Of a DNA stretch of 40,062 nt, positions 12,928 to 28,417 are shown piece after piece. The position numbers and the translations under genes were made by a program. The DNA is from an uncultured archaeon (GTDB taxonomy: Archaea; Aenigmatarchaeota; Aenigmatarchaeia; QMZP01; QMZT01), in NCBI GenBank assembly GCA_964346665.1, contig CAYFVC010000035.1, positions 1-40,062 of the forward strand. The letters are read 5' to 3'. The notes beneath the pieces were generated by a model, which worked only from the letters and a program-made list of their open reading frames with translations, ran no database searches and had not been told where the DNA came from. Positions within the stretch are counted from its first letter, which is position 1. Every line of letters begins with the position of its first letter.

Positions 12928-12950
12928 TAAGCGTAATTCGCTCACATCTA

Positions 12951-12957: not shown

Positions 12958-12978
12958 GATTGTATTTAATTAATTATT

Positions 12979-14523
12979 ATGAGGAGAAGGGTGAAAAAAG
13001 GTAGGGTAAAGAGGAAACCGAGAAGAAAAATTTCTGCAAAAAAAGCGGAAGAAATTCCTAAATTAACGGAAAGCCTTGAACATTTAATGCACCAGAAAGA
13101 GGAGATACGTGCTTTGCTTTCTTCGCTGGAGGATGCGTACAGCGAGGCTACTATTATGGAGGAGGACTACAGAGAAATCAAATCCAAGAATCTTACGAGA
13201 CTTGAGGAGATAAACAAGAAGATAGAGACTTTGAAAAGGGAGGGGGTGAAACCTAAACCCCCGCCAAGACCAGAAATCCCGGTGGTCGAACCTCCGACTG
13301 CAGTCCCTGTTGAGGCACCTCCGATTCCTGCTGCTCCCCCTGTTGTTGTTGAGGAGAAGGTTGAGAGAAAACCAAAGAAAAAGAAGGGATTAGTGAGCCC
13401 AGAGGATCTGAAAAAGCTAGAAGTGGACCTCGCAGAAAGAGTAAAGGAAATGGTGGAGGACATAGGGGCAAAGGTATCCGAAAAGGATGTTCTTGAGATA
13501 AAGAACAAATTCACCAGATTCGATACGGAAATAGAGAAGATGAAAGCGTTGATCGAAACCGTAAGGGAAGGTAAAAAGGTTTCTGATGAAAAGATCCAGA
13601 GGGTTGTGGAAGGCCTCGCTGAGATCCGAACCATGGTCTACGGAAGGGAGGCTTCCATGAAGGAGTGGGAGGTCAAACTGGAAAAGGTTATGGATATCAT
13701 GAACAGGGTCGAACCGGAAAAGATAATGATGGAGATGGGAAGAAGGGACAAGGAAGTGGAAAATCAGAATTTGAGGATAAACAAGCTTGAGGAAATGACA
13801 AAGGAGTTTGGGGAAATGGTTAAAAATATAGAAAAGGTTTTGCGCGACATAGGGAGTCTGGAAAATGTTGTTAAGGTAAGTAGCGATGCTTCTGAAAAAT
13901 TGATGAACATGCAGAATATCGAAAGGAATAACCAGAAGATGTTAGATAAAATTCAGGGTCTTTATGCTGAACTCAGCAAACGAATGGAGGAATTCATGCT
14001 TTATCGAGCTAAGCAAGATCGGATGGAGGATTTGATTAATGAGATGCTGAAAAACCTTGACGACATCAACACTAAGGCCGCGTACTTCGTAACGAGGGAT
14101 GATTTAGAGTCGTTCAGGGCGAGCATGCAGGCTGCCGCTCCCTCCGCACCTTCACCAAAAGATGAACTAAGTGATTTAAAATCAGAGAAGGAAGAAATAG
14201 AAATGCTCATGAAATCGTTAGAGGAGGAGTTCAAGGGCGTTGCGATTTCGAAGGAAGAGTACGAAAAAATGAAGAATGCGAATTTAGCAAAACTTAAGGA
14301 GATAGAGGGGAAAATAAAGGAAGCTGAAAAGGGGAAGGTTTTGGGAGCGATCAAAGAGGGGAAACCAGAGGGAAAGCCAAAGAAAATCGAAAGGGGAATA
14401 CCCCCAGAAGAAAAGGGGAAGGAAGAAATGCTTTTGAAGGATCTGGAAGAGACCTTCAAAAAGGGGTTCATAAGCAAGGAAGCGTATGAGAAAACCAAGA
14501 AGATGATTTTGAGAAAAGGGTGA
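12979..14523 (+). CDS. Cytoplasmic coiled-coil protein with a polybasic N-terminus, a Pro-rich linker and three SHOCT-like motifs
   Basis: ATG start and no TM segment. N-terminus is MRRRVKKGRVKRKPRRK; linker is KPKPPPRPEIPVVEPPTAVPVEAPPIPAAPP. The central part is E/K-rich with heptad character. SHOCT-like L..LE..[YF]k.g.IS.E.Y...K motifs lie at 13114-13203, 14206-14295 and 14431-14520. The TGA stop overlaps the GTG start of the next gene. Confidence 0.8.
   Translation: MRRRVKKGRVKRKPRRKISAKKAEEIPKLTESLEHLMHQKEEIRALLSSLEDAYSEATIMEEDYREIKSKNLTRLEEINKKIETLKREGVKPKPPPRPEIPVVEPPTAVPVEAPPIPAAPPVVVEEKVERKPKKKKGLVSPEDLKKLEVDLAERVKEMVEDIGAKVSEKDVLEIKNKFTRFDTEIEKMKALIETVREGKKVSDEKIQRVVEGLAEIRTMVYGREASMKEWEVKLEKVMDIMNRVEPEKIMMEMGRRDKEVENQNLRINKLEEMTKEFGEMVKNIEKVLRDIGSLENVVKVSSDASEKLMNMQNIERNNQKMLDKIQGLYAELSKRMEEFMLYRAKQDRMEDLINEMLKNLDDINTKAAYFVTRDDLESFRASMQAAAPSAPSPKDELSDLKSEKEEIEMLMKSLEEEFKGVAISKEEYEKMKNANLAKLKEIEGKIKEAEKGKVLGAIKEGKPEGKPKKIERGIPPEEKGKEEMLLKDLEETFKKGFISKEAYEKTKKMILRKG
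13114..13203 (+). other. SHOCT-like motif copy 1 (LLSSLEDAYSEATIMEEDYREIKSKNLTRL)
   Basis: Read from the translation. Resembles the SHOCT pattern (L..L..L...G.It.eEye..K..LL) recalled from memory. Confidence 0.45.
14206..14295 (+). other. SHOCT-like motif copy 2 (LMKSLEEEFKGVAISKEEYEKMKNANLAKL)
   Basis: Read from the translation. This is the closest match to the SHOCT pattern. Confidence 0.5.
14431..14520 (+). other. SHOCT-like motif copy 3 (LLKDLEETFKKGFISKEAYEKTKKMILRKG) at the extreme C-terminus
   Basis: Read from the translation. A C-terminal position is typical for SHOCT. Confidence 0.5.
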
Positions 14524-17500: not shown

Positions 17501-20459
17501 TGAAAAACAGATAGGTGTTCTTGTCTTGAATTCCACGGGAAATGACCCTGCTGAGAACATAACATTCGATATCTACAACTTTTCGAATGATTTCACTTTC
17601 GAATTCGTTCCGCCGAACATTTCTAGTCTGAATGGAGAATATCCGCAGGGTGTTAAGGTCAACGTCAGCGTTAAGTTCGGGAGAAATCCAGGGGTTTACA
17701 AGGGGATTTTGAACGTGACAACGGGGAATGATGGATACAAGGAGATTAACCTGACTATAGAAGTTCCAATATCAAGAACATGGTATCTGAACACAACATA
17801 TTGCGTAAAGGTTGAATACCCAGAGGAGGGAAAGGTGTGCGATGTTTTGGTTAACAACACTGGAAACGTTGTGATAAACTACACAATATCCCCTGTCACC
17901 AATTCAACTAGTATGTACAACTACACTTGGATCAATGAAACGAATTTCATAGTGGTGAATGGGACAACGCATGTTTTCTCTGTTTTCTACAACATAACAG
18001 GTCAGAGCATACAGTTTTACTACGCGAATTACACCATCGATGCTGTTCAGACAGGTTCGGACCCGGATAGCGAAATACTTCAGATAGTTCTCAGCCCTTT
18101 CGTAAAGCCTTTGGTTTCGGTGGGTTTCGCTCCCAACCAAACCGAACAAACTAAAAGCGTTTGGGTATACGCGAATGTTACAGATCAATCCGGGGCGGGG
18201 ATAGATGACGGGAACGTGACTGCGAATGTGACTAGACCTGATGGGACAAGCACGGTTGTAATCATGACCTTTTACGGTGGTGTAAAAACAGGAGGAACTT
18301 CAATATGGCGAGCGCAATATCCGGATGACCCGAATGAGGGGAACTGGGGAAATTCAACGTTAAAGGGTTATTACAATGTGAGTGTTTTCGCGATAGATAA
18401 TCAGGGAAAGAATGACACGGGAATCTCGCAATTCTACATTTACTCGAAACTTTCTCCGTTCTTTATGACAACTATGCCCTACTATTACCAAAAGGTTGGG
18501 CCCGGCACACCCATCATATTTTACAAATCTTTGGACTTCACAGAGGATACCCTGCCGGGAACGAACGTGACTTTCGTAATCAACAATTCAAACGGAACCG
18601 TCTACAACAGCTCCTCTAAATATGGTATACTGACGACCCATGATGATGGTTACATAAGAGATGAGTATGGGGGGATATATCTTGAAACAAGGTCTCTTAA
18701 AAGCTTTCCGACAGGAAACTACACCGCCACCGCCTATTCCACCTTCTTTGAACAAACGGCGTCCGCAATTATAAACGATACTTCAACGTATAATTTCGAA
18801 TTGCTGGAAAGCGCGGGAACACTTGCGAACATCTTTGTCTATCCTGTTTGGTATCCAGCCGAAGGTATAGTGAAATTCAAGATGTGGGTAACCGATAGCA
18901 TAGGGAATTTGCAGGAGCCCGTTTCAATGAACCTTAGCGTGTTTTACCCCATAACCGGCAATCCGTACTTCAACCGAACGATGAGCCAGATGACGAAGAT
19001 TTCGGAAGGCGTGTACATGTACACACATAACCTCCCAGCTAGTCCAACACCCGGGGTTTATGACGTTACTCTCGAAGTCCTAGGTAGGGATGGTACGAGA
19101 ACTTATGCTTTTTCCGGTTTCAGGATTGGTATAGGAGGGCCTTACGATGTTAGAATAACCGAAATCGAAAGTTCCGTTTACCAAAATGATTACCTTGACT
19201 TCACGCTGTTGATCAAAAACATGGGGGATGCCCCAACAGAAAACCTCGTTGAATACTGGGTGACAGGCCCGGATAACAGCACATGGGAGTACGGAAGCTA
19301 CTCCGAGGAGGTTGGAGCGGGTGTTGAAAAAACCGATTTAGTTAGTTTACTAATTTGGAGTTATCATCCTCCGGGAGATTACACTTTGAATGTCAAGCTT
19401 ACATACGACCAGGTCAACAACCTTTACGCTTCTGCAGCCGCTCCCTTCTCCGTACTTACAGGTGCGCCACCGGAAGAGCCAGGACCTGGTGTTGGCCCGG
19501 CAGAGATTCCTGCTATGCCTGTAGCCCCTAAAATAGAGATTATGAAATATCCTACGGAGTTTGGAATGGAAACAGATTCTGTTAAGTACCCGACGGTGGA
19601 GGTCAAAAATACAGGGGGGGTTACGTTGTATAACGTGACCCTTAGGGTAACGGGTATTCCATCCCCATGGATCCAAGAGGTAACGCCTGGGAAAATAGAT
19701 AGGTTGGACAGGGGTCGTAACGCCACATTCACCGTAACGTTGAGAATCCCGCTTGTTGCAGAAGCGAAAGAATATGCAGGTAAATTTGTAGCGGATGCTA
19801 ACGTGACGAGAGATGAGAAAACGTTCGTTTTGACCCTTTTCGCTTCACGTGCGGACCTGATAAGATGGGAGATCGACAGGTTGAAGGAAGCGTTACAAGA
19901 ATTAGAGGTGGACGTTGAGAACGCGAAAAAGGTGGGAAAAGACGTAAGTGAGGTTGAGCCGTACATAGACCGAATAAAGGAACAGATAAGGCTCGCTGAA
20001 GACTACCTCACGAAAAAGATGTACGATGAATCGTTGAGCGCGATACATACTGGGTGGAGTTTTCTCGAAAATGCAAGGTATTATTTGTCGATAGCGCCAT
20101 TTGTTGAAACCCTGATAGAGACCATATTCCCTCCATGGCTGATAGCATTGCTAATCGTCTTGGCTACTGTCATAATTATACTCCTGTTCTTTGTGAAAAG
20201 GATGAAAGGGGTTTTCGACAGGATATTCAGAATACAGGTTCCTGGCGCACCAGCCGCTGTCAAGCCATCCGTGATCATGGAGAAGATGAAGGAGAAGGAA
20301 ACCATGGAAAAGGAAAGGATGAATATAAGAAGGGTTCTCAGTCTTCTGGAAAGGGAATACAAGGAAGGATTGATATCAGAGAAGGCTTACAGCGATCTCA
20401 AGAAGAGGAACGAGGAAAAGCTTTCGAAAATCGAGAAGAGGATATCTGCGATGAAATAA
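14520..20459 (+). CDS. Giant single-pass surface glycoprotein 2 (1,979 aa) with an N-terminal signal/anchor, a C-terminal TM helix and a SHOCT-like cytoplasmic tail
   Basis: GTG start in a GTGA overlap with the upstream stop. N-terminal hydrophobic segment is KLILAFVILGVFMVLNLVSTYSQ. It is followed by YEWWDVRWRYRIGLEINN, which resembles the start of DUF2341-type beta-sandwich domains (from memory; needs an HMM check). Sequon density is extreme, with 17 N-X-S/T in one ~115-aa stretch. A Pro-rich stalk (APPEEPGPGVGPAEIPAMPVAP), a CARDB-like domain and a helical segment precede the TM helix at 20136-20195 (WLIALLIVLATVIIILLFFV-KRMK). The cytoplasmic tail is 87 aa. Confidence 0.85.
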   Translation: MSEIRHGKLILAFVILGVFMVLNLVSTYSQSYDYEWWDVRWRYRIGLEINNTGYERTDWPIEYEMNFTNILEGMNVTGTFDENSTRVIEYNSTGSILHELPSQFDKGEGYDPATNAFGTIVFEMNGTTPADEKRYFYIYFDITENDDKDQPSYSTDLVYNYTGSVSEFNVNNSLFQWWIDTERGENTSGIYHVKDIYAGENEVLLTDPSDNRTAEYSEFSNASDTFGFDFRNNATFKYVGPVRIVVEQKGYEIFWNQPDNKTNEGYMIKRYTFYREIDWIKIEQIFVNNASYNITRNSTVAGAFAVYVNYTFNYGSGYSTMSDTNDPGSYGWAVQDGGQVWIGIVNKYENGTNNFFGLEDTVTGRIGIQLNETNMTLGSSIKHIAHLQFNASGEAGQEDYFKNFVNQSITPLNITELTPEFWSVVVEGKFYMNGTDEANVFNRNESVILLANVTDLYNISKKVNASLDFGVGEVNVTLYDDGNHSDGQANDKVYANTYNITDSDTLGLWNVTFRVYNETWYLVNISWSTFNVTDVYNVTVNITNPTGFTDRVVNTTVYVRNYRKDIWIVNATLNCSFDSTEIPQDNITDNGNGTYDVKFNAPAYAGLFTLNCSATRNNNTGWGTDEFTSETYTTNVSILKIPENLTADNVTSYSNQTFNITIIAENIANGSAYNSNITLNFSTPNITANLTFVSCGNILITKNCTKTFQIIVFNATPAGNYSLNISVRWRNSNGSVPGYNESVMNITVLENPILDLSKNYVFGMIAIGMALKNIDNFTVYSLGNEPLQNVTFDVLGFSGNFTFEFIPENFSSIGVGISENVEIWINSTNDTLPGEYNGTINVTSDNNGFEIINVTIAVSETNMTIETDVDNYTAENVTWYKNETFPIFVNTTNIGNATAYNVSLILNFSSDNITANVTSQNCGNIPKSGVCNSSFLVIIKSGTPSGNYTVNVSVEWEDEKGINTNVTTVNITVLSNILLIVQPDELSDNVTHGTEKQIGVLVLNSTGNDPAENITFDIYNFSNDFTFEFVPPNISSLNGEYPQGVKVNVSVKFGRNPGVYKGILNVTTGNDGYKEINLTIEVPISRTWYLNTTYCVKVEYPEEGKVCDVLVNNTGNVVINYTISPVTNSTSMYNYTWINETNFIVVNGTTHVFSVFYNITGQSIQFYYANYTIDAVQTGSDPDSEILQIVLSPFVKPLVSVGFAPNQTEQTKSVWVYANVTDQSGAGIDDGNVTANVTRPDGTSTVVIMTFYGGVKTGGTSIWRAQYPDDPNEGNWGNSTLKGYYNVSVFAIDNQGKNDTGISQFYIYSKLSPFFMTTMPYYYQKVGPGTPIIFYKSLDFTEDTLPGTNVTFVINNSNGTVYNSSSKYGILTTHDDGYIRDEYGGIYLETRSLKSFPTGNYTATAYSTFFEQTASAIINDTSTYNFELLESAGTLANIFVYPVWYPAEGIVKFKMWVTDSIGNLQEPVSMNLSVFYPITGNPYFNRTMSQMTKISEGVYMYTHNLPASPTPGVYDVTLEVLGRDGTRTYAFSGFRIGIGGPYDVRITEIESSVYQNDYLDFTLLIKNMGDAPTENLVEYWVTGPDNSTWEYGSYSEEVGAGVEKTDLVSLLIWSYHPPGDYTLNVKLTYDQVNNLYASAAAPFSVLTGAPPEEPGPGVGPAEIPAMPVAPKIEIMKYPTEFGMETDSVKYPTVEVKNTGGVTLYNVTLRVTGIPSPWIQEVTPGKIDRLDRGRNATFTVTLRIPLVAEAKEYAGKFVADANVTRDEKTFVLTLFASRADLIRWEIDRLKEALQELEVDVENAKKVGKDVSEVEPYIDRIKEQIRLAEDYLTKKMYDESLSAIHTGWSFLENARYYLSIAPFVETLIETIFPPWLIALLIVLATVIIILLFFVKRMKGVFDRIFRIQVPGAPAAVKPSVIMEKMKEKETMEKERMNIRRVLSLLEREYKEGLISEKAYSDLKKRNEEKLSKIEKRISAMK
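16419..17768 (+). repeat. Tandem duplication of a ~225-aa two-domain (CARDB-like) cassette in giant protein 2
   Basis: Unit 1 spans 16419-17099 and unit 2 spans 17100-17768. Aligned motifs: TN[VM][ST]I...DN.TAENVT...N.TF.I...N[IT].N[GA][ST]AYN...L NFS..NITAN[LV]T...CGNI...C...F..I[VI]...TP[AS]GNY[ST][LV]N[IV]SV.W...N[IV]TVL.N ... NDP/NEP..N[IV]TFD[VI]..FS..FTFEF[IV]P.N[FI]SS...PG[EV]Y.G.[IL]NVT..N.G...IN[VL]TI.V. Confidence 0.8.
20136..20195 (+). other. Transmembrane helix of giant protein 2
   Basis: WLIALLIVLATVIIILLFFV is followed by KRMKG. There are no sequons downstream of it. Confidence 0.75.
20337..20423 (+). other. SHOCT-like motif in the cytoplasmic tail of giant protein 2 (LSLLEREYKEGLISEKAYSDLKKRNEEKL)
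   Basis: Same L..LE..[YF]K.G.IS.E.Y...K pattern as the three copies in the 514-aa protein. Confidence 0.5.
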
Positions 20460-20574: not shown

Positions 20575-21234
20575 ATGCGGAAAAAATCGAAACTCACGGA
20601 TTACAAGAATTTCTGGCTCATATGGATAAACTGCGCTGGGGAAAAAGAAGGGGTCTCGTTGTTTAAGATTCAGACAGAGTGGGATGTGAAAACGAATTAC
20701 TTGTACCACAACGAAGTGGGTCTGGGGAGACCGTTGTTCAGGTCCATGGTAAGGGAGAATTACATAGCGAAAGAAGGTAAGCGCCTGAAAGCGAAATTTG
20801 AATGGATACCAAAATTCATAAGGGAAAAATACGAAGGGGAGAGGAAGGGTCTATGGTTTCCCGATTCTTTGCTCAGGATTAAATGGGGGGCTGTTCAGAA
20901 ATTCATCGAAAAATATCATCCCGTACTTTTCAGAATGAAAAACCTAAAACTTCTGTACAAGAATGATAAGGAATTAATAGGGAAATCCGGAACGCATGTA
21001 TTCACGGATGTTTTTCTTTACGTGTTGTTTTCTAATCTCAGAACATTCTGCAAGAAATACGAGGCTGATGTTGTTCTGAGAATAATATCCACCCTAATTT
21101 CACTTTCAACCGATAGGGATTTGCTGAATTACATACACAGGCTAGATTCAGAACTAGGGAAAGTTCCCGACTTCCCCGTATTGGTTAGGGACGAGAACGA
21201 ACTGTCGAAAATATTGTGTACGCTGAAATGGTAA
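20575..21234 (+). CDS. Hypothetical protein (219 aa), no family recognised
   Basis: ATG-initiated ORF with its own upstream A/T box and coding-like composition. There is no TM segment and no motif I can name. Confidence 0.6.
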   Translation: MRKKSKLTDYKNFWLIWINCAGEKEGVSLFKIQTEWDVKTNYLYHNEVGLGRPLFRSMVRENYIAKEGKRLKAKFEWIPKFIREKYEGERKGLWFPDSLLRIKWGAVQKFIEKYHPVLFRMKNLKLLYKNDKELIGKSGTHVFTDVFLYVLFSNLRTFCKKYEADVVLRIISTLISLSTDRDLLNYIHRLDSELGKVPDFPVLVRDENELSKILCTLKW

Positions 21235-21267: not shown

Positions 21268-22038
21268 ATGACGAGGGTAATAGGCATAATTTCGGGAAAA
21301 GGTGGAGTGGGGAAGACGACGTTAGTTGCAAACTTAGGATCTGTTCTTGCCCAGAAATTCAAAAAGGAAGTTATCATAATAGATTGCAACGTCTCTACAT
21401 CGCACCTTGGCCTTTACCTCGGGATGTACTACACACCTGTGACCCTAAACCAAGTTTTGACGGGCGAAGCCGAAATAGAGGACGCGATATACGAATACCA
21501 CATAAGCGGTTTACGCGTGATACCTGCCTCCCTATCTTTCAGCGATTTAAAAGGGGTGGACATAGCGAGGTTGAAGAATTCTTTGAAGAAACTCTTCGGA
21601 AAGGCTGATATCGTATTACTTGATGCCGCCCCCGGACTCGGGAGGGAGGCGCTAGCGACTGTTAGGGCCTCTGATGAGGTCATCTTTGTAAACACACCTT
21701 TCGTTCCCTCCACAATGGATATTATGAAATGCCACCAAGTCGCGAATGAGATAGGGGTGAAGCCCTTGGGGGTCGTACTCAACATGGTGGGGAAAGAGAA
21801 ATATGAACTGAACCCTAAAGAAGTTGAAGAGCTGATAGAACTACCCGTGATCTCGAACATACCCATGGACAAAAACGTTCTTCGCAGCCTCGCTTTGAAG
21901 ATACCTGTCGTTCTATTCTCTCCTAATTCCCCTTCAAGCAAAGAATTCACTAAGCTTGCAGCAAAGATAATCGGGGAAGAATACGAACCTGAGGGGTTCT
22001 TTGCAAATTTATTGAAATTCTTCAGCAGGAAGAAGTAA
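21268..22038 (+). CDS. minD: ParA/MinD-family P-loop ATPase (archaeal MinD-like) with a C-terminal amphipathic helix
   Basis: Deviant Walker A is IISGKGGVGKTTLVANLG, with the signature Lys. Also present are IIIDCN, DIVLLDAAPGLG and GVVLNMV. The C-terminal GFFANLLKFFSRKK (21994-22035) resembles a MinD membrane-targeting helix. Confidence 0.85.
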   Translation: MTRVIGIISGKGGVGKTTLVANLGSVLAQKFKKEVIIIDCNVSTSHLGLYLGMYYTPVTLNQVLTGEAEIEDAIYEYHISGLRVIPASLSFSDLKGVDIARLKNSLKKLFGKADIVLLDAAPGLGREALATVRASDEVIFVNTPFVPSTMDIMKCHQVANEIGVKPLGVVLNMVGKEKYELNPKEVEELIELPVISNIPMDKNVLRSLALKIPVVLFSPNSPSSKEFTKLAAKIIGEEYEPEGFFANLLKFFSRKK

Positions 22039-22071: not shown

Positions 22072-22335
22072 ATGGTCTATGAAATAGTTATTATTTTCCT
22101 CCTTGCAATAATTTGTTTTTTATTATACAAATTATATAGAATTAAATATGAAGAGGGGGGCGGAAGCGAGTTGATACCCAAAGGGTGGAAAAAAGATTTG
22201 ATGGAACTCGATAGCGAAAAGGGGAAAGAATTCGAAATGCGTTTCGAGGATATAAACTCTCGTATTTCGGAGATTGAGAAAAGAATCGAAAGGTATGAAA
22301 GAATTGTTAAAAAACTTGTCGAGGAATTGAGCTAA
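22072..22335 (+). CDS. Small membrane-anchored coiled-coil protein (87 aa)
   Basis: N-terminal TM helix is VYEIVIIFLLAIICFLLYKLY. The cytoplasmic helical tail is FEDINSRISEIEKRIERYERIVKKLVEEL. The next gene starts 9 nt downstream. Confidence 0.65.
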   Translation: MVYEIVIIFLLAIICFLLYKLYRIKYEEGGGSELIPKGWKKDLMELDSEKGKEFEMRFEDINSRISEIEKRIERYERIVKKLVEELS

Positions 22336-22344: not shown

Positions 22345-24264
22345 ATGGTAAGAAAGAAATCTGCTAAGCCAAAGGGCGAATTTGAAAAAATGGGTGATCT
22401 GGAGAAGGGAATGAGTAAAAAAAAGGAGAGCACAGAGGATATAATAAAGGAGATAGAAACCTTTGATGCCACCAAAACAGATAGGCCCGTAGGGGAAGAA
22501 ACGCCTCCGAAAACCGAAGTTAAAAAGAAAGCAGGTGGGGAAGAGGCTGAAGGCCTCAAGAAAGAACTGGAAAGGGAAAGGGAGAAGACCAAAAGCCTGG
22601 CGAAGATAATAGAGAAGGTTTCAAGTGCTGCGGACAAGCCTGTGGAGAAACCTGATGAGAAGCCCGCTGTACCTGACGTTGAACCGAGATTGAAAGAGAT
22701 CGAAAGCAAAATGGACGAGAAAATTCAGTCGCAAATGAAGGGTATTAAGGATGCTGTGGCTGCGATGGGGGCGAAGATGGAAGAAGCTGCGAAATCCGGG
22801 AAAAGCGAAAGGACAAGCACCAAGGTAAAGGATATGATAGACAATGTTCAAGCTGATACGACAAAGAAAATAACAGAGATTGAGGAAACCATGAGAAAGA
22901 TGGTCGAAAAGGCCGAGGAGCCTAGAAAAGAAGAGGGTGATGTTTCGAAAGGTCTTGCCGCATTGGGCGGTGGTGTTGGTCTTAAGAAAGAAATACTTGA
23001 GATGAGAAGTTCTCTGAAGGATTTGGAGAAAAGCATCAATGAACTTCGTGACGAAACAGACACGAGGATAACAAGGATAAAGGAGCAGACAAGAGTTCTC
23101 GAGAAAATCCCCGTAATTGAGGAGAAACTTGAGGGTCTCATAGAAAAAATGAGCCCAGGGAACATAGAGAAACTGAAGAAGTTCGTTTTCTCCGCGGATG
23201 AGATAACGAGTGAGTTAATACCGAATGAGATAGAAAAACGAATGACGAAAGATCTCACCCCCGTATTCAACGACATGAAGAATGTGAGGGACGATATTGA
23301 GAAACTGAGCGAGGGTATAAAAACTATATTCAACGATATAAACTTTTTCAAGGGAGAAATCAAAACTCTCTACAAACTCGGGGACTACATAACGGAACTC
23401 CAGAAAGAAAAGGAAAAGATACACAAAAAGATGAATGAAAAGGAAGGAAATCTCATAGGAATGATCAACAAGCTTGAAGGGCTGATAAAGAAAAAGACAG
23501 ACCTTATGAGTGAAAAGGTAGGGGAATTCGAGAAGACAATCGAAGGTAAGGTTAAGGAACGTTTCAATGACCTGACTGAATCCAAGTTCACCGAACTTGA
23601 GGACAGAACGGAGAAAAACCTAGCGATATCCAGGGTGAAAGTAAATGATATGGTTTCAAAGTTCGTTCAGTTCCAGAACGTTGTGAATCCCACGCTTTCG
23701 CTCGTTAAGGAAGAGTTCGAAAAACTTAACACGAAACTTGAGAAATTGAAGAGTGATCAAGCGGATCTTGAGGATGAGATGGAAGAAACTGTAAATGGGA
23801 TGTTCACTGACCTTGCTGAACCAAGGATGAAGGAGATCAGGGAAGAGACCACCAAATTATCAAGCAAGGTGAATGAAAGGCTTGAAGATTTCGAATCCGA
23901 ATTTGTCCAGTTCCAGAATGTAATAAATCCTACCCTTAACCTCCTGAAGAACGATATTTCGAAGATTGACAACAAAATCGAAAATTTGAAAACGAGGCAT
24001 GATGATTTGAAGGGGAACGTGAAAGAATTCGAAAGTTTCAGGGAAGCGATAGTTTCCTTAAACGAGGGAGTGAGGTCATTAGAAAACAATCAGAAGGATT
24101 TGGAAAATAAAATTTTGATTCTGGGAAGCAAACTTGGCGAGACCAGGGAGGAATTCAACAACATTGTCAAGCAGAGCCTTATCGACAGAAAGAAACTGGA
24201 CGAGGAATCAAAGAAGCAAAGGGAAAGGATAAATATACTTCTCAAAGAGTTGAAGGGTTCATGA
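22345..24264 (+). CDS. E/K-rich coiled-coil protein (639 aa)
   Basis: ATG is preceded by GGGGT (SD-like). No TM segment and no P-loop. It contains an 80-aa internal repeat marked by FVQFQNV[VI]NPTL at 23662 and 23902. The stop overlaps the next start (ATGA). Confidence 0.8.
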   Translation: MVRKKSAKPKGEFEKMGDLEKGMSKKKESTEDIIKEIETFDATKTDRPVGEETPPKTEVKKKAGGEEAEGLKKELEREREKTKSLAKIIEKVSSAADKPVEKPDEKPAVPDVEPRLKEIESKMDEKIQSQMKGIKDAVAAMGAKMEEAAKSGKSERTSTKVKDMIDNVQADTTKKITEIEETMRKMVEKAEEPRKEEGDVSKGLAALGGGVGLKKEILEMRSSLKDLEKSINELRDETDTRITRIKEQTRVLEKIPVIEEKLEGLIEKMSPGNIEKLKKFVFSADEITSELIPNEIEKRMTKDLTPVFNDMKNVRDDIEKLSEGIKTIFNDINFFKGEIKTLYKLGDYITELQKEKEKIHKKMNEKEGNLIGMINKLEGLIKKKTDLMSEKVGEFEKTIEGKVKERFNDLTESKFTELEDRTEKNLAISRVKVNDMVSKFVQFQNVVNPTLSLVKEEFEKLNTKLEKLKSDQADLEDEMEETVNGMFTDLAEPRMKEIREETTKLSSKVNERLEDFESEFVQFQNVINPTLNLLKNDISKIDNKIENLKTRHDDLKGNVKEFESFREAIVSLNEGVRSLENNQKDLENKILILGSKLGETREEFNNIVKQSLIDRKKLDEESKKQRERINILLKELKGS

Positions 24265-27200
24265 GCGAGCTTACAGAACTCGAGGAGGGATTGAGGAAGC
24301 TCAAAGAGGACAATCTAGAGAAGAAGCGACTGGTTTCTCAACTGGAAAGGGAAAAGAAATACCTTGACGAGAGAAACAAGTATTTGATAGAAAAGCTTAA
24401 GCAGGCAGGCGTGTTGTACGAGGAAGCGGGGAAAAGGGTTGTGGATTTCGTAAACGTACACGTAAAGCCGTTGAGAACGAAACTCGCTGATTTTGATTCA
24501 AGACTTTCAAAAATCAAGGAGTACGAAAGGTCTATAAATTCCACCCTGAAGAGGATTGAGTATGTCGAGGAGGTGGTTAATGGTTTCAAAAACGAGTTGT
24601 TGAAAACCCGAGAAAAGGAAGCGTTGTTGTCCGCAAATGTGAAAGATCTAAAGAAGAAGGGTTCTGAGCTTTCGAAAAGAATATCCACTGTCCAGACATT
24701 CGGGTCGGAAGAGCTCGCTGAGAAGGTCGAGGAAATAAAGGGTAAGTTCGGAGAGGATGTTGAAGGGGTTGAGGATAAATTTAACGAGTTCAAGACAGGA
24801 GTTGAAAACACAGTAGATAATTTCAGGAAGGAGTTCGAAAGTGAAGCGAGTTCCTTAAGAGAAGTGGTTGAAGGGGCTGACCTTAAGAAAGCTAAAGAAC
24901 TTGATGAAGCGTTGGGGAGGGTGATGGAGGACCTCGCCAAAACAAAGAGAGAATTTTCGAAATCCCTGGCCTCTATGGAGAAGGCTGTCGAAAGGCTGGA
25001 TGTTAAAAAAACGGAAGAAGTGGGCAAATCAATAGAAATGCTCACAGCGAATCTTAATGAAAGGTTCGAAAGCTTTGCTGAAGACCTTGAAGAGCGGGTT
25101 AAAACTGCGGAGAATGAATTGAACGATTTCAAGGTGGAACTCGAAAAATCGCTTGGGGATGTGAAGACCGAAACGAGGGATTTTGTTAATTCCAAATCCA
25201 AAGAATTCGATTCCCTACTATATGAACTGCGGAACAAAATGGATGAACAGATGGAGAGTTCGGTAACGGAATGGAACGATAACCTAGGGAAAGTGAAATC
25301 TGATCTGATGAGCACAAAAAAAGAAATAGAAAAACTTATCGGGTCGGTGAACAGGAAAGTGGAAATCGGGGAGGAGAGAAGGGAAAAGAAGGTGGATAAT
25401 TCGCTTTCGGATATGCACTCCTCACTTTCTGAAAGACTGGATAGCATGAATAAGGATATTGATGGGAAGATAGGGGGGATAGTTGAGAATGTGGGGAGGA
25501 AATTCGAAAATGTTGAAGAAAGCCTTATTGAAAAGATAGTATCTGTCGAAAACAGTATGGATGAGATTAGAGCGAACTTCCAGGGTTTTGTAAATTCCAT
25601 GTCTGCTGATTTCGAAAATAAAATGAATTCTCTAAGAAAGGAATTCGAAAAACGTGACTCGAAAAGGGACAAAAGTTTCGAAAAGTTCTCGGAATCGTTT
25701 AAGAGCAATGTTGATGAAAAGTTCGGGATTTTAAGAGAAGGGATCGGAGGGGAAATTGAAGAAATAAAGGGTGAAACGACTTCTTTGCGGAAGGAGATGG
25801 ACAACTTCGTAGTTGATCTAAAGGAGAAGTTTGATGGGATCATAAAGGAGAAATCAAAGGAGTTTGAAATGATGGTGAATTCGCTTGTAGATGATACAAA
25901 AGCGATGGAGAAAGAGGTTAAAGGGGTTATAGACGACTTCAAAAAGGAGATAGAATCCAAGGAAATCGAAAGAGGTGAGGAGATAAACAAGATGGTAAAT
26001 GAGTTCATTTCGCAAAAAGGTGAGATTGACGGGAAAATCAAACAGCTCGATTCTAAGATATCGGAATTCTCTGAAACAAGTGAGGATATTCGAAAAGGGA
26101 TTCTTAAGGAAAGCCTTGTAGGGGTGAATGAAAGGGTCGAGGGCATAGCAGAAGGGATGGAAGAGAGATTCGACAGCGCCAAGGAAGATATGGAAAGGGA
26201 GGTTAACGAAGCTGTGGAAAATATTGATAACAGGGTAAAGGGGATGGAAACAAATCTTAATGACTTCAAGGTCGAACTTGAGAAAACGGTTGGGAAGCTC
26301 AGGGATGACGTGGATAATATCACGGGCAAGAAGACCGAGAAGATGGACAAGGTTGTTGAAAAAGCGAAGAAGGATCTTGAGGGAAGGGTGAAATCATTCA
26401 CTTCGGAGGTTTCAGGGGATATCGAAATGTTGAAGAATGATGTTGTTTCTATGAGGAACGAGTTTGAAAAGGGAGAAAGGGAGAGGGAAGGGAAGGTTGA
26501 GGAGACGAGGGAAAAGCTTGAGAAAGGAATAAAGGAGAGGTTTGATGATTTATTCGGAAGTGTAGAGGGGAGGATAAATGCTGTGGAAGGTGAAATCGAA
26601 TCTTTGAGTAAAGGCACGGAATCTCTCGTTAAGAATCTGGAAGCCGGATTCGAAAAGGCTGAGACAAAAAGGGAGGGGAAGATCGAGAAAGCAAAAACGA
26701 AGATTGAAAAAGAAATAAAAGAGGGATTTGATGATTTCGTTGGAAGAACTGAGGAGAGAATGAAGGTGGCGGAAAGCGAAGTCGTATCCTTGAGAAACAA
26801 AATGAATGATGTCCTCGGAGAACTTAGGGCAAACTTCGAGGAGGTTGTAGAAAAGAAATCGAAGGATTTCGAAAATATTATGAAAGAGTTGGTTGACAGG
26901 TCAGAAAAAGCGAAGAATGATATGGAATCGCTTGCTGGATATCTGGAAACCAAATTCCAGGAAGGTGAAAAAGAAAGGGAGAAAGAGGTAGGAAAATCCG
27001 TAAAGGAATTGATGGTCACGATGGGGATGATAGAAGGAAGGTTGAAGGGAGTGGACGAGGAAATGGACAAGTTTTCCGAGATAAGGGATAACTTGAAAAA
27101 CGAAATAATGAGGGAGAAGACTGACTTGATTGATGACAGGTTTTCCTCGCTTTCCGAGAACACGAAAGCGAAGGTATCTGACATGAGGAAATCGCTTAGA

Positions 27201-27551
27201 GAGGAAATGAAAGGATCAAGATCAGCCTACACAAGAGTTGAAGAGAAACTGGCCAAAATGAGCGATAGAATTGGTATGATTAAGGATCAGATTTTTGAAA
27301 TGAAAAAATCAAGAGACCTTGTATTAGGTGATGTGAAATCTTTGAATAAAACCTTAGAAGGGAACGTCGATTCAAAGCTCAAGAATTTCATGAAGGATTT
27401 GGAGAAGCGAATGAAAACTCAGGAGGAAATTTTGAATTTGAAAATGACGGAAATAGAAAGCAAAATCAATTCCGTTTCGGAAGAGATAACGAAAACCAAA
27501 AAGGAGAAAGAGGAACAGCTTGATGAAATACTTGAACACGTGGAATCATGA
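24261..27551 (+). CDS. E/K-rich coiled-coil protein (1,096 aa) with degenerate internal repeats
   Basis: ATGA overlaps at both ends. No TM segment and no Walker motifs, so it is not SMC/Rad50-like. The FEK.[ED].[KR][RE][ED][GK]K motif recurs roughly every 70-75 aa. N[ED]LNDFKVELEK occurs twice, at ~25122 and ~26259. Confidence 0.8.
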   Translation: MSELTELEEGLRKLKEDNLEKKRLVSQLEREKKYLDERNKYLIEKLKQAGVLYEEAGKRVVDFVNVHVKPLRTKLADFDSRLSKIKEYERSINSTLKRIEYVEEVVNGFKNELLKTREKEALLSANVKDLKKKGSELSKRISTVQTFGSEELAEKVEEIKGKFGEDVEGVEDKFNEFKTGVENTVDNFRKEFESEASSLREVVEGADLKKAKELDEALGRVMEDLAKTKREFSKSLASMEKAVERLDVKKTEEVGKSIEMLTANLNERFESFAEDLEERVKTAENELNDFKVELEKSLGDVKTETRDFVNSKSKEFDSLLYELRNKMDEQMESSVTEWNDNLGKVKSDLMSTKKEIEKLIGSVNRKVEIGEERREKKVDNSLSDMHSSLSERLDSMNKDIDGKIGGIVENVGRKFENVEESLIEKIVSVENSMDEIRANFQGFVNSMSADFENKMNSLRKEFEKRDSKRDKSFEKFSESFKSNVDEKFGILREGIGGEIEEIKGETTSLRKEMDNFVVDLKEKFDGIIKEKSKEFEMMVNSLVDDTKAMEKEVKGVIDDFKKEIESKEIERGEEINKMVNEFISQKGEIDGKIKQLDSKISEFSETSEDIRKGILKESLVGVNERVEGIAEGMEERFDSAKEDMEREVNEAVENIDNRVKGMETNLNDFKVELEKTVGKLRDDVDNITGKKTEKMDKVVEKAKKDLEGRVKSFTSEVSGDIEMLKNDVVSMRNEFEKGEREREGKVEETREKLEKGIKERFDDLFGSVEGRINAVEGEIESLSKGTESLVKNLEAGFEKAETKREGKIEKAKTKIEKEIKEGFDDFVGRTEERMKVAESEVVSLRNKMNDVLGELRANFEEVVEKKSKDFENIMKELVDRSEKAKNDMESLAGYLETKFQEGEKEREKEVGKSVKELMVTMGMIEGRLKGVDEEMDKFSEIRDNLKNEIMREKTDLIDDRFSSLSENTKAKVSDMRKSLREEMKGSRSAYTRVEEKLAKMSDRIGMIKDQIFEMKKSRDLVLGDVKSLNKTLEGNVDSKLKNFMKDLEKRMKTQEEILNLKMTEIESKINSVSEEITKTKKEKEEQLDEILEHVES

Positions 27552-28417
27552 ACGAGAAAATGGATAAGGTGAAGAGAAGGATAGACGAGATAAAGAAGGA
27601 GAGAGAGGAATTGAAGGAGAAATATGATTACCTTGTGGAACAAATGAAAAAAACGATTGACAAACATTCCCAAGATATCGAGTTCCTCAAGAATGAAGTG
27701 AGGGGAATCGCTGACAAGGAGGAGAAAGATGAAGAGGGGGTCTCGGACGTTCGCTCGCTGATGAATTCCATTAAAGATGAACTCAATGAAAAGGTTAACG
27801 TCCTCGATAAAGAAATAACATCTGAACTTTCGAAATTTAAAGGACTTGAAGAAAGGTTAGGTAAAGATGTTGAAGATTTCGAGAAATTCGCAAGTAAACA
27901 GAAGTCTAGGATAGATGAATTCGAATCAAAGGTTTCGGATAAGATCGACATGTTCGCAATCGAAAAGGAGAATCTAAGGAGGGATTTCACCTCGATTTCG
28001 AGTGATTTCAAGAATATAGGAAGTCATTTGGATTCCTTAAAGGAGAAGGATTCTAATCTAAGCCAGCATTTACAAAACCTCTCACTCGAAATGGAGAACT
28101 TCAAAAAGGCGACGGAAGAAATTCTCGAGAAGTTGAAGGGGGAACAAAAGATATTCCAGGAGAATGTCGTAGCAAAACTCAATGAGGCGAGCAATAAAAT
28201 ACTCAACCGCCTTTCACAGAGCGAAGCGAAAACTTCTTCTGAGCTTGTAAAAAAATCGGAGGATATCAAGCTCTTCAGAGCGCACACGACACAATTCATA
28301 AATGATCTCGTAGTGAATTACGAAAAGCGATTCGAGATGATGAAATCCGAGATTGATGAGATCCTAAAACTGGTGGAAGAGCGAGTAAGGGCACAGCGAG
28401 CGATGATTTTTGAGTGA
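27548..28417 (+). CDS. E/K-rich coiled-coil protein (289 aa)
   Basis: ATGA overlap with the upstream gene. Heptad-like composition with no TM segment. Confidence 0.75.
   Translation: MNEKMDKVKRRIDEIKKEREELKEKYDYLVEQMKKTIDKHSQDIEFLKNEVRGIADKEEKDEEGVSDVRSLMNSIKDELNEKVNVLDKEITSELSKFKGLEERLGKDVEDFEKFASKQKSRIDEFESKVSDKIDMFAIEKENLRRDFTSISSDFKNIGSHLDSLKEKDSNLSQHLQNLSLEMENFKKATEEILEKLKGEQKIFQENVVAKLNEASNKILNRLSQSEAKTSSELVKKSEDIKLFRAHTTQFINDLVVNYEKRFEMMKSEIDEILKLVEERVRAQRAMIFE

What the first reader, a model, noticed from the sequence alone, without database searches (positions are those of the whole stretch)
22345..28417. Three translationally coupled E/K-rich coiled-coil genes (2,024 aa) with no ATPase heads and with internal repeats
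The genes of 639, 1,096 and 289 aa are joined by ATGA overlaps at 24261-24264 and 27548-27551. None has a TM segment, a P-loop or any globular domain I can recognise. They are therefore not SMC/Rad50-like, although automated pipelines would probably label them that way. Internal structure is visible. An 80-aa repeat is marked by FVQFQNV[VI]NPTL at 23662 and 23902. N[ED]LNDFKVELEK appears twice, about 379 aa apart, at ~25122 and ~26259. A degenerate ~70-75-aa unit is marked by FEK.[ED].[KR][RE][ED][GK]K ... [IV]KE[RG]FDD[LF].G. This resembles a filament or ruler-type cytoskeletal set. Its position next to a MinD ATPase and a tiny TM/coiled-coil protein suggests a membrane-attached scaffold.
Basis: partly seen in the sequence, partly recalled or inferred. 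Interest (0 to 1): 0.65.

Follow-up and report, generated by a model that had tools for sequence, protein, structure and literature searches.

The report
Archaeal MinD-linked coiled-coil scaffold operon
Three back-to-back genes in a tiny symbiotic-type archaeon (Aenigmarchaeota) encode long helical rod proteins, one probably a straight rod about 120 nm long, that always sit beside a small membrane anchor and a MinD positioning ATPase, so they most likely build an uncharacterised membrane-attached internal scaffold.

Summary
Three coupled ORFs of 639, 1,096 and 289 aa have ATGA overlaps, no TM segment, no P-loop and real internal repeats.

The window comes from a Candidatus Aenigmatarchaeota (DPANN) genome. 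No profile library gives a meaningful family. The SMC/Rad50 matches lie far below their cutoffs, and the Apolipoprotein and Baculo_PEP_C matches reflect periodicity.

Protein B is not a heptad coiled coil. From about residue 150 to 960 its hydrophobic seam has a phase-coherent period of 3.64 residues. All 13 orthologues share this period. Every length difference between them is a whole number of 3.64-residue turns (sums of 11s and 7s). AlphaFold2 predicts 96% helix, at low confidence. Protein A is heptad-like. It has a basic N-terminal peptide and a variable Pro-rich linker, an architecture like that of PomX.

The block TM87-A-B-C stays next to g219-MinD in every locus examined, including lineages where it is inverted. 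Giant surface-protein genes usually flank the block.

Best reading: a lineage-specific, membrane-tethered coiled-coil scaffold that is cargo or partner of a MinD-type ATPase. It is analogous to PomXYZ and Scy-ParA but not homologous to them. Its function is inferred, not shown.

The parts
20575..21234 (+). g219: an Aenigmarchaeota-specific 219-aa protein that always lies immediately upstream of the MinD gene. It has an N-terminal winged-helix-like subdomain and a helical domain.
   Evidence: At least 146 homologues, and all named ones are Aenigmarchaeota. AF2 pLDDT 88, pTM 0.87. No PDB fold match better than E=0.3; the weak hits are PadR, IclR and Sso10a winged-helix proteins. It sits next to MinD in all loci.
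21268..22038 (+). Archaeal MinD-type ATPase with a deviant Walker A (GKGGVGKT) and a conserved C-terminal amphipathic, basic helix (GFFANLLKFFSRKK) that is a likely membrane-targeting sequence.
   Evidence: TIGR01969 minD_arch scores 241.5 bits against a cutoff of 201.75. The C-terminal amphipathic pattern is conserved in the ten close orthologues, with tail extensions in L013/L014. Identity across loci is 82-95%.
22072..22335 (+). TM87: one N-terminal TM helix (residues 1-24) followed by a cytoplasmic coiled-coil tail. It is the putative membrane anchor and the first gene of the TM87-A-B-C block.
   Evidence: Hydropathy 2.73 over residues 1-19. Conserved in 9 close loci. Recognisable in the inverted operons at E 1e-9 to 1e-10. 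A 9-nt spacer separates it from A.
22345..24264 (+). Protein A (639 aa). It has a Lys/Arg-rich conserved N-terminal peptide, the FDATK motif, a variable Pro/Glu/Lys linker (to about residue 125), and a conserved helical region with heptad-type periodicity and an 80-aa repeat.
   Evidence: Spectral peak at 3.48. Conservation and arbitrary indels are confined to the N-terminal linker. The family has 34 proteins at 37-73% identity.
23647..24006 (+). 80-aa internal repeat of A (residues 435-474 and 515-554), marked by FVQFQNV[VI]NPTL.
   Evidence: Score 115 against a shuffle maximum of 51. The motif is invariant in orthologues. 80 residues equal 22.0 turns at 3.64.
24261..27551 (+). Protein B (1,096 aa): a conserved N-terminal head, a long non-heptad rod and a conserved C-terminal end (...KKEKEE.L.E.L.HVES).
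   Evidence: 13 homologues, 31-56% identity by tblastn across loci. AF2 gives 96% helix in 7 long helices, pLDDT 53.
24261..24716 (+). B head (residues 1-142, heptad-like, densely invariant, e.g. YLIEKLKQAGVLYEE) plus an invariant linker, QTFGSEEL (residues 145-152).
   Evidence: Invariant columns. The predicted loop at residues 143-151. The same head sits at the N-terminus of many other long proteins of 212-1,913 aa.
24714..27143 (+). B rod (residues ~152-961). It has a continuous hydrophobic seam of period 3.64 residues, about 120 nm long if it is a continuous helix, and is built of diverged modules.
   Evidence: Spectral power 17.9 against a shuffle maximum of 2.3, and the phase stays within about 110 degrees (106 to about 196) over windows starting at residues 133-958. 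All 13 orthologues peak at 3.64. All inter-orthologue length differences are whole numbers of turns. The hydrophobic arc is narrow, about +-50 degrees.
26463..26834 (+). Tandem 62-aa unit in B (residues 735-796 and 797-858; FEK..E..REGK ... IKE[RG]FDD). 62 residues equal 17.0 turns.
   Evidence: Score 110 against a shuffle maximum of 59. The window has 51 extra residues here (14.0 turns) relative to most orthologues.
27548..28417 (+). Protein C (289 aa). It is heptad-like and helical, with a conserved C-terminal domain (FRAH.TQFINDLV.NYEKRF ... RAMIFE). The window copy has an in-frame loss of about 105 aa.
   Evidence: Alignment with 7 orthologues of 393-446 aa. Spectral peak at 3.57.
7..20459 (+). 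Flanking context that is usually linked. g4306 is a giant glycoprotein-like surface protein with a C-terminal cytoplasmic HerA/FtsK-type ATPase. g514 is a coiled-coil protein. g1979 is a giant surface protein with a C-terminal TM and a cytoplasmic coiled-coil tail.
   Evidence: Pfam DUF87 and HerA_C at residues 3971-4037. Walker A and B motifs. TM at residues 1874-1892 of g1979. Orthologues adjoin the MinD block in L001, L002, L010, L014 and L015 (in L004 the contig ends before this position) but not in L003.

Best explanation
TM87, A, B and C are the co-translated subunits of an Aenigmarchaeota-specific cytoplasmic coiled-coil scaffold that is tethered to the inner face of the cell membrane. 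The scaffold is functionally coupled to the neighbouring membrane-binding MinD-type ATPase and its partner g219.

Shown here:
- The genes are tightly coupled.
- The proteins are helical, lack ATPase heads and are cytoplasmic (no signal peptide or TM segment).
- B carries an ~810-residue uninterrupted hydrophobic seam of period 3.64 residues. That is the period of an undistorted alpha-helix, so the rod should be essentially straight and unsupercoiled, about 120 nm long.
- Evolution has changed the rod length only by whole helical turns.
- The TM87-A-B-C block stays adjacent to g219-MinD through inversions.

Inferred:
- B forms a parallel, in-register homo-oligomeric rod. This is the simplest way for single-site insertions of 11 to 142 residues to stay matched and in phase.
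- TM87 anchors the assembly to the membrane.
- A resembles PomX in layout: a conserved basic N-terminal peptide, a variable Pro-rich linker and a coiled coil. A is therefore the likely contact and ATPase-activating partner of MinD.
- MinD, with its C-terminal amphipathic helix, positions the scaffold on the membrane or controls its assembly.
For: Gene structure.

Heads and membrane segments: no P-loop or TM segment. SMC and Rad50 models score far below their cutoffs.

Periodicity:
- The 3.64 peak has power 17.9 against a shuffle maximum of 2.3, with stable phase over windows starting at residues 133-958.
- The same period is found in 13 orthologues and in the L014 orthologue (3.63, power 14.1).
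- The A orthologues keep about 3.49.

Rod length changes: the length differences between invariant anchors are 142, 87, 80, 11, 51, 69, 73 and 113 residues. These equal 39.0, 23.9, 22.0, 3.0, 14.0, 19.0, 20.1 and 31.0 turns. The chance that eight values all fall within 0.1 turn of an integer is about 0.2^8, or 3e-6 (my arithmetic).

Structure: AF2 predicts 96% helix. The hydrophobic arc is narrow and flanked by Arg, then Glu/Asp.

Synteny:
- 9 GTDB species loci, all Aenigmatarchaeota or unnamed archaea, have the same order wherever the contig reaches.
- In L003 the giant genes are absent but the block is kept.
- In L015 and L016 the TM-A-B-C operon is inverted and divergent from g219-MinD. Orthology there is supported at E 1e-9 (TM87), 1e-27 to 1e-32 (A) and 1e-14 to 1e-16 (B).

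MinD: it is a bona fide archaeal MinD with a conserved C-terminal amphipathic helix.

A's N-terminal layout matches the layout described for PomX and other activators of ParA/MinD ATPases (PMC7993993).

Long hendecad rods are known cytoskeletal scaffolds that interact with ParA: Scy (PMC9858780, PMC3718342).
Against: - Nothing experimental exists, and no RNA data were found.
- The AF2 model of B has pLDDT 53 and pTM 0.20, so its tertiary and quaternary structure are unknown.
- Gene order is broadly conserved in this clade (GlmS and the MiaB-like gene are syntenic too), so adjacency alone is weak evidence. The inverted arrangements help, but they are only three lineages.
- The oligomeric state, the A-MinD contact and the anchoring by TM87 are all analogies.
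- Rod length varies by species (1,041-1,387 aa), so a strict 'ruler' of fixed length is unlikely.
- These genomes hold other MinD/ParA paralogues.
Confidence: 0.5

Rival explanations
1. The scaffold is the cytoplasmic base of an envelope-spanning cell-cell interaction apparatus. That apparatus is built with the flanking giant surface proteins: g4306, which has a cytoplasmic HerA/FtsK-type ATPase, and g1979, which has a cytoplasmic coiled-coil tail, together with g514. MinD positions this apparatus. This is a more specific version of the main explanation rather than an exclusive alternative.
For: - The giant genes adjoin the MinD block in most loci and in three different arrangements.
- g4306 ends in a TM region followed by a HerA-like P-loop domain.
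- g1979 has a C-terminal TM and a ~90-aa cytoplasmic coiled-coil tail that shares a motif with g514.
- DPANN archaea build large attachment organelles and cytoplasmic filaments whose proteins are unknown (PMC11420986, PMC11104419).
Against: - L003 keeps g219-MinD-TM-A-B-C without the giant genes next to it.
- Attachment organelles have been imaged only in Nanobdellota, not in Aenigmarchaeota.
- No sequence link joins A, B or C to the tails of the giant proteins.
Confidence: 0.2
2. A chromosome or plasmid segregation and anchoring system. g219 (winged-helix-like) acts as a DNA-binding adaptor for the ParA/MinD ATPase, and A, B and C tether DNA to the membrane or act as the tracked cargo.
For: - The N-terminal subdomain of g219 gives only weak Foldseek hits, and those hits are to winged-helix DNA-binding proteins.
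- ParA/MinD systems commonly pair with a DNA-binding adaptor, and PomXYZ uses the nucleoid as its matrix (PMC7993993).
Against: - The fold hits for g219 are not significant (best E 0.3).
- This MinD scores as archaeal MinD rather than ParA (241 bits against 53 for ParA_partition) and carries a membrane-targeting-type C-terminus.
- No centromere-like repeats were seen (one search covers the operon only).
Confidence: 0.12
3. B is an apolipoprotein- or LEA-like amphipathic helix protein that lies flat on membranes or lipid surfaces instead of forming a coiled coil.
For: - Pfam Apolipoprotein scores 92.5 bits against a cutoff of 90, and ApoLp-III scores 40.9 against 36.3.
- ApoA-I and ApoA-IV are the only PDB sequence hits (E 6e-5 to 1e-3).
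- The ~3.64 period is shared with proteins built of 11-mer repeats.
Against: - The hydrophobic arc is only about +-50 degrees.
- Glu/Asp flank the seam and Lys sits on the far side. This is the opposite of the class-A lipid-binding pattern.
- B has 1 Pro in 1,096 residues, so there is no helix punctuation.
- The seam stays in phase for ~810 residues, and indels are whole turns.
- The specific head and tail sequences are conserved.
Confidence: 0.05
4. SMC/Rad50-type chromosome proteins, as automated annotation says.
For: JGI names. Weak matches to SMC, Rad50 and ASRP coiled-coil arms.
Against: - There is no Walker A.
- Scores are 23-41 bits against cutoffs of 300-1,000.
- The matches cover only the coiled-coil arm regions.
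- B's period is 3.64, not a heptad period.
Confidence: 0.01
5. The three genes are structural coiled-coil proteins of unrelated role, and their neighbourhood with MinD is inherited gene order without functional coupling.
For: Housekeeping neighbours (GlmS, the MiaB-like gene) are equally syntenic in the close relatives.
Against: Adjacency survives inversion of the operon (L015, L016 and L013), survives loss of the upstream giant genes (L003), and survives re-splitting of the coiled-coil genes (L014).
Confidence: 0.1

Closest known systems
Scy / FilP (Streptomyces intermediate-filament-like polarisome scaffolds)
   Same: Both have very long rods (>1,000 residues in Scy) made mainly of hendecads mixed with heptads. 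The period is about 3.64 (51/14), giving almost no supercoil. A heptad-type N-terminal head precedes the rod. Scy interacts functionally with a ParA-type ATPase (PMC9858780, PMC3718342). One B orthologue differs from the others by exactly 51 residues.
   Different: No DivIVA-like N-terminal motif is detected. The core is L/I/V/M/F with only 3% Ala, whereas the dimeric Scy/FilP cores are Ala-rich (PMC9858780). B is archaeal, not actinobacterial. No sequence homology is shown.
PomX / PomY / PomZ (Myxococcus ParA/MinD ATPase with coiled-coil cargo)
   Same: A ParA/MinD-family ATPase gene lies next to genes for large coiled-coil proteins. Protein A copies the PomX layout: a conserved positively charged N-terminal peptide, a variable Pro-rich region and a coiled coil (PMC7993993).
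   Different: PomZ uses the nucleoid as its matrix, whereas this MinD has a membrane-targeting-type C-terminus. Homology to PomX or PomY was neither found nor tested. This cluster has additional components (TM87, g219, B, C).
SpiroCoCo family coiled-coil proteins (NCBIfam NF047514/NF047515, spirochaetes; uncharacterised)
   Same: The B rod profile hits them at E 1e-8 to 1e-11. They have the same 3.64 period with high power, 11-20. They carry an N-terminal TM anchor, which parallels the separate TM87 gene here.
   Different: B scores 29 and 35 bits against cutoffs of 75 and 125, so it is not a member. In SpiroCoCo the anchor is fused to the rod rather than encoded separately. They are bacterial. 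No paper was found.
Apolipoprotein A1/A4/E domain (PF01442) and Baculo_PEP_C (PF04513)
   Same: Both are formally above the Pfam gathering score on B (92.5 against 90; 77.9 against 38), through several partial stretches. They share the 11-mer-type amphipathic periodicity.
   Different: B has no Pro punctuation, a narrow seam, the reversed charge pattern and no signal peptide. The matches reflect periodicity and composition, not function.
SMC / Rad50 / archaea-specific SMC-related proteins
   Same: Long helical arms and E/K-rich composition, which is why pipelines give them this name.
   Different: There are no ATPase head halves, no hinge or hook, and the rod is non-heptad.
Archaeal MinD paralogues of Haloferax (MinD4, MinD2)
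   Same: They belong to the same ATPase family. They position non-division cargo such as the archaellum, chemosensory arrays and CetZ1 (bioRxiv 10.1101/2020.04.03.021790; PMC11588486; PMC11621097).
   Different: The abstracts seen describe no coiled-coil operon partner. The cargo here would be new.

Membership tests
SMC / Rad50 / ASRP | N-terminal Walker A and C-terminal Walker B/signature ABC-type head halves | tested here: not met
   No G....GK[ST] motif in A, B or C. NCBIfam scores are 23-41 bits against cutoffs of 300-1,000, and the matches lie in arm regions only.
SMC / Rad50 / ASRP | Central hinge or zinc hook, with antiparallel heptad arms folding back | tested here: not met
   No Cys at all in A, B or C. 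B's seam has period 3.64 and is continuous.
Scy/FilP-type hendecad IF-like proteins | Long rod dominated by hendecads (period ~3.64-3.67) after a heptad head | tested here: met
   Period 3.64 over ~810 residues. The head (residues 1-142) is not in that phase, and windows 39-77 are heptad-like.
Scy/FilP-type hendecad IF-like proteins | DivIVA-like N-terminal motif | tested here: not met
   No DivIVA Pfam hit on A, B or C at E<=1.
Scy/FilP-type hendecad IF-like proteins | Ala-rich hydrophobic core compatible with a dimer | tested here: not met
   Ala is 3.1% overall and <=7% of residues in any bin of the hydrophobic arc (0-60 degrees).
PomX-like activators/cargo of ParA/MinD ATPases | Gene linked to a ParA/MinD ATPase gene | tested here: met
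   MinD is adjacent in all loci, including the rearranged ones.
PomX-like activators/cargo of ParA/MinD ATPases | Short conserved positively charged N-terminal peptide, then a variable linker, then a self-assembling coiled coil | tested here: inconclusive
   The layout is present in A (MVRKKSAKPKGEFEKMG..., variable Pro/Glu linker, coiled coil). ATPase activation and self-assembly cannot be tested here. In the most distant orthologues the peptide is only partly conserved.
PomX-like activators/cargo of ParA/MinD ATPases | Sequence homology to PomX or PomY | not tested
   No PomX or PomY sequence or profile was available. No profile-library hit suggests homology.
SpiroCoCo (NF047514/NF047515) | Score above the NCBIfam cutoffs for the N- and C-terminal domains | tested here: not met
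   B scores 29.4 against 75 and 35.0 against 125. True members score 191-307.
Apolipoprotein A1/A4/E (PF01442) | Pfam gathering score | tested here: met
   92.5 bits against a cutoff of 90, from 6 partial stretches.
Apolipoprotein A1/A4/E (PF01442) | Pro-punctuated 22-mers with a broad class-A lipid-binding face; secreted | tested here: not met
   1 Pro in 1,096 residues. The hydrophobic arc is about +-50 degrees, with Glu/Asp next to the seam and Lys on the far side. No signal peptide.
Archaeal MinD (TIGR01969) - neighbour gene | Score above the cutoff, deviant Walker A, C-terminal amphipathic helix | tested here: met
   241.5 bits against 201.75. GKGGVGKT and GFFANLLKFFSRKK are conserved.
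Single alpha-helix (ER/K) domain | Charged helix without a hydrophobic seam | tested here: not met
   About 32% of residues are hydrophobic, concentrated in one narrow phase-stable stripe.

The most novel reading that the evidence does not exclude
The conserved neighbourhood may be the genetic module of an Aenigmarchaeota-specific, envelope-spanning cell-cell contact or transfer organelle. The neighbourhood comprises the giant surface protein with a HerA-type translocase domain, g514, the second giant surface protein, g219, MinD, TM87, A, B and C. In this reading the ~120-nm straight B rod is the cytoplasmic strut or length-setting element, and MinD places a single copy at the membrane. This would give the first molecular parts list for a DPANN attachment structure.
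Probability: 0.15. Interest if true: 0.85.

Novelty: new variant of a known kind. Interest (0 to 1): 0.6.

Why it matters
Hardly anything is known about the cell biology of DPANN archaea. Papers on their attachment organelles and cytoplasmic filaments state that the component proteins are unknown (PMC11420986, PMC11104419).

This operon gives a concrete, conserved and testable candidate. It has a membrane anchor, three rod proteins and a dedicated MinD-type ATPase with a lineage-specific partner.

It also offers an unusually clean natural example of a very long, non-supercoiled coiled coil. Its evolution is visibly constrained to whole-turn insertions and deletions, which is of interest for coiled-coil structural biology and protein design.

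It would also extend to a new cargo class the theme, known from bacteria and haloarchaea, that ParA/MinD ATPases position large scaffolds.

Practically, these genes are being mis-annotated as SMC or SbcC ATPases in public metagenomes.

Tried and rejected
- Composition-corrected blastp among A, B and C and against themselves gave one weak A-B hit (E 4.5e-4) and nothing else. Repeats were therefore tested by diagonal scoring against shuffles.
- An hhalign comparison of the A family with the B family gave probability 37%, so paralogy is not established.
- PDB sequence searches found only apolipoproteins for B, nothing for A as a single sequence, and only two marginal hits for the A profile.
- A Foldseek search with the B model was not run, because pLDDT 53 and pTM 0.20 would give meaningless matches.
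- The Foldseek search with the g219 model found no significant fold match.
- No DNA-level repeats were found.
- No RNA runs were found, and only DNA metagenomes hold the sequence, so co-transcription could not be checked.
- Literature searches for Aenigmarchaeota with MinD or coiled coil, and for SpiroCoCo, found no description of this system.
- The 948-aa antisense ORF at 24338-27184 is rejected as a gene. It is Ser/Phe/Leu-rich low-complexity sequence, the complement of a purine-rich coding strand.
- A mobile-element or viral origin is rejected. GC content is uniform, and the block is syntenic with housekeeping genes across species.

Full report
**1. Observation**

The three ORFs exist as described: A at 22345-24264 (639 aa), B at 24261-27551 (1,096 aa) and C at 27548-28417 (289 aa). 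ATGA start/stop overlaps lie at 24261-24264 and 27548-27551. The same overlaps occur in orthologous loci.

Each protein is 30-31% Glu+Lys, has no Cys and almost no Trp or His. B has a single Pro. None has a Walker A motif or a hydrophobic segment that passes a 19-residue hydropathy scan.

- A has an 80-aa repeat, score 115 against a shuffle maximum of 51.
- B has a 379-residue offset repeat, score 92 against 59.
- B has a tandem unit, score 110.

The tandem unit is 62 aa, not 70-75 aa. The exact shared string of the other motif is LNDFKVELEK. The repeats are invisible at DNA level, so they are old.

The long antisense ORF at 24338-27184 is a by-product of the purine-rich coding strand.

**2. 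Organism and family**

Homologues of B (13 proteins, 32-43% identity, 1,041-1,387 aa) and of A (34 proteins) come only from metagenomes and MAGs. A scan of one genome per GTDB species found 9 loci. All are labelled Candidatus Aenigmatarchaeota or uncultured archaeon, and one lies on a 1.1-Mb contig. The window is therefore from a DPANN archaeon.

A profile of the B family was run against 1.84 billion cluster representatives. It found only 170 proteins at E<=1e-3 and 14 at E<=1e-30, so the family is narrow.

**3. No meaningful assignment to a known family**

- NCBIfam SMC, Rad50 and ASRP models score 23-41 bits against cutoffs of 300-1,000, and only over arm regions.
- Pfam Apolipoprotein (92.5 against 90) and Baculo_PEP_C (77.9 against 38) pass formally on B, but through several partial stretches.
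- ApoA-I and ApoA-IV are the only PDB sequence hits (E 6e-5 to 1e-3).

**4. What B is**

The hydrophobic pattern of B has one dominant period, 3.64 residues. Its power is 17.9 against a maximum of 2.3 in 200 shuffles.

Tracked in 44-residue windows, the phase of this seam stays between 106 and about 196 degrees for windows starting at residues 133-958, with no slip. The first ~140 residues and the last ~100 are out of that phase.

All 13 orthologues peak at exactly 3.64. The more distant L014 orthologue peaks at 3.63 with power 14.1.

A period of 3.64 is not heptad (3.5). It equals 51/14, 40/11, 62/17 and 80/22, that is, mixtures of hendecads and heptads. It is the pitch of an undistorted alpha-helix (3.63; PMC9858780). 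A bundle built on it should have almost no supercoil.

The strongest result concerns length differences. Between invariant anchor columns of the 14-sequence alignment, every difference is a whole number of 3.64-residue turns:

| Residues | Turns |
|---|---|
| 142 | 39.0 |
| 87 | 23.9 |
| 80 | 22.0 |
| 11 | 3.0 |
| 51 | 14.0 |
| 69 | 19.0 |
| 73 | 20.1 |
| 113 | 31.0 |

Eight values within 0.1 turn of an integer have a chance probability of about 3e-6 (my arithmetic). Selection has therefore kept one continuous seam in register while modules were gained and lost.

AlphaFold2 with this alignment predicts 96% helix in seven long helices, but pLDDT is 53 and pTM is 0.20. That answers 'helical or disordered' and says nothing reliable about packing.

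A helical-wheel analysis of residues 152-960 gives the following:
- The hydrophobic arc is narrow: 83%, 72% and 40% L/I/V/M/F in the 0-20, 20-40 and 40-60 degree bins.
- Arg flanks the seam, Glu/Asp lie at 60-120 degrees, and Lys sits on the far side.
- Ala is rare.

This is a coiled-coil seam, not the broad class-A face of lipid-binding apolipoproteins. It also differs from the Ala-rich core of dimeric Scy/FilP (PMC9858780). As a continuous helix the rod would be about 810 x 0.15 = 120 nm long.

Inference: the simplest way for single-site insertions to remain matched and in phase is a parallel, in-register homo-oligomer. The bulky core hints at more than two strands. Neither point is shown.

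**5. Domain layout**

B:
- The head (residues 1-142) is the most conserved part, e.g. YLIEKLKQAGVLYEE.
- It is followed by an invariant linker, QTFGSEEL, which AF2 places in a loop.
- The same head sits at the N-terminus of many other long proteins of 212-1,913 aa. Most of these are also non-heptad, with periods of 3.53-3.64.

A:
- Its spectral peak is 3.48, and 3.49 in the L014 orthologue.
- It starts with a conserved Lys/Arg-rich peptide and the motif GEFEKMGDLEKG...FDATK.
- A Pro/Glu/Lys-rich linker follows, with arbitrary indels.
- Then comes a strongly conserved helical region with invariant Pro-containing motifs, including the duplicated FVQFQNVxNPTL.

C:
- It is heptad-like.
- It has a conserved C-terminal domain ending in RAMIFE.
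- The window's copy lacks about 105 internal residues that all orthologues have.

A and B are not demonstrably paralogous (hhalign probability 37%).

**6. Neighbourhood**

- Upstream is a bona fide archaeal MinD (TIGR01969, 241.5 bits against 201.75). It has a deviant Walker A and a conserved C-terminal amphipathic basic helix.
- Before MinD lies g219, an Aenigmarchaeota-wide protein with at least 146 homologues. Its model is confident (pLDDT 88). It has no significant PDB fold match, only weak winged-helix hits.
- Between MinD and A lies TM87: one N-terminal TM helix plus a cytoplasmic coiled coil.

In the nine close loci the order is g1979, g219, MinD, TM87, A, B, C wherever the contig reaches. 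Identities are MinD 82-95%, g219 67-87%, A 53-73%, C 46-63% and B 31-56%.

The linkage survives rearrangement:
- L003 has lost the giant gene upstream but keeps the six-gene block.
- L014 has the A and B orthologues followed by four more coiled-coil genes.
- In L015 and L016 the TM-A-B-C operon is inverted and divergent from g219-MinD. Orthology is confirmed by phmmer: TM87 at 1e-9, A at 1e-27 to 1e-32, B at 1e-14 to 1e-16.
- L013 has an A-like gene divergent from g218-MinD.

**7. Wider context**

- The 4,306-aa protein upstream ends in a TM region followed by a HerA/FtsK-type P-loop domain.
- The 1,979-aa protein has an N-terminal signal-like helix, a C-terminal TM and a ~90-aa cytoplasmic coiled-coil tail.
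- That tail shares a motif with the 514-aa coiled-coil protein encoded between the two giants.
- These genes are linked to the MinD block in most lineages and in different arrangements.

**8. Mechanism proposed**

TM87, A, B and C form a membrane-tethered cytoplasmic scaffold whose long element is the straight B rod. MinD, itself membrane-binding, positions the scaffold or regulates its assembly. A is the likely contact, because its layout matches that of PomX and other activators of ParA/MinD ATPases: a basic N-terminal peptide, a variable linker and a coiled coil (PMC7993993).

Precedents for the logic:
- PomXYZ (PMC7993993).
- Scy-ParA (PMC3718342).
- Haloarchaeal MinD4 and MinD2, which position non-division cargo (bioRxiv 10.1101/2020.04.03.021790; PMC11588486).

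These are functional analogies. Membership in the Scy/FilP, SpiroCoCo, apolipoprotein and SMC families fails on defining features (see the membership table).

A more specific and more speculative reading is that the scaffold underlies an envelope complex made with the giant proteins. This is relevant because the proteins of DPANN attachment organelles are unknown (PMC11420986, PMC11104419).

**9. Verdict**

The family is uncharacterised and restricted to one archaeal phylum. It is best classed as a new variant of the coiled-coil scaffold plus ParA/MinD theme, with an unusually clear structural signature. Its function is inferred only.

Noticed in passing
window 7-12927 (+), especially 11700-12927: The 4,306-aa giant surface-type protein ends with a TM region (about residues 3899-3940) followed by a cytoplasmic HerA/FtsK-superfamily P-loop ATPase domain. 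The domain has Walker A GATGAGKT and Walker B LLLVYDE, Pfam DUF87 and HerA_C hits, and weak CedD, TraD and HerA hits. A translocase-type ATPase fused to a giant extracellular protein is unusual.
   Followed up: partly
window 12979-14523 (+) and 20187-20459 (+): The 514-aa coiled-coil protein between the two giant genes carries three copies of a ~35-aa motif (SLE..Y..G.IS.E.Y..K......L..IE). The same motif ends the cytoplasmic tail of the 1,979-aa protein. Hits to SHOCT_2 and GvpG are only sub-threshold. This suggests a tail-adaptor interaction.
   Followed up: partly
window 32932-36087 (-): Five consecutive genes (171, 160, 356, 172 and 205 aa) each have a single N-terminal hydrophobic helix after a short basic leader, which looks like a class III (type IV pilin-like) signal. 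They have no Pfam or NCBIfam hits. They are conserved in the related Aenigmarchaeota loci.
   Followed up: partly
window 24338-27184 (-): A 948-aa antisense ORF lies opposite gene B. It is Ser/Phe/Leu-rich low-complexity sequence. It is an artefact of the strongly purine-rich coding strand (GC skew 0.39-0.44 and AT skew 0.26-0.31 across gene B) and is not a gene.
   Followed up: yes
window 27548-28417 (+), between codons 74 and 75 of C: The window's C protein has an in-frame loss of about 105 residues relative to all seven orthologues (393-446 aa). Whether this is a real strain difference or an assembly collapse was not checked against reads.
   Followed up: no
window 20575-21234 (+): g219 is a phylum-specific protein with a confident AF2 model (pLDDT 88) but no significant match in the PDB. 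It may be a new fold built on a winged-helix-like N-terminal subdomain. It is always paired with this MinD paralogue.
   Followed up: partly
L001 13287-13826 versus P0008 C-terminus: In the 1.1-Mb contig the B orthologue (P0008) has an aberrant C-terminus, and an extra 179-aa ORF follows it. This is probably a frameshift or sequencing error in that assembly.
   Followed up: no
proteins P0161, P0163, P0176, P0170: Very long proteins share the same 3.64-residue period at very high power (11-24). P0163 and P0176 (with N-terminal TM anchors) and P0170 are bacterial SpiroCoCo-family members, while P0161 (the highest power, 23.6) matched no SpiroCoCo model. Straight hendecad/heptad rods of >1,000 residues therefore appear to be a recurrent and largely unstudied structural class.
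   Followed up: partly
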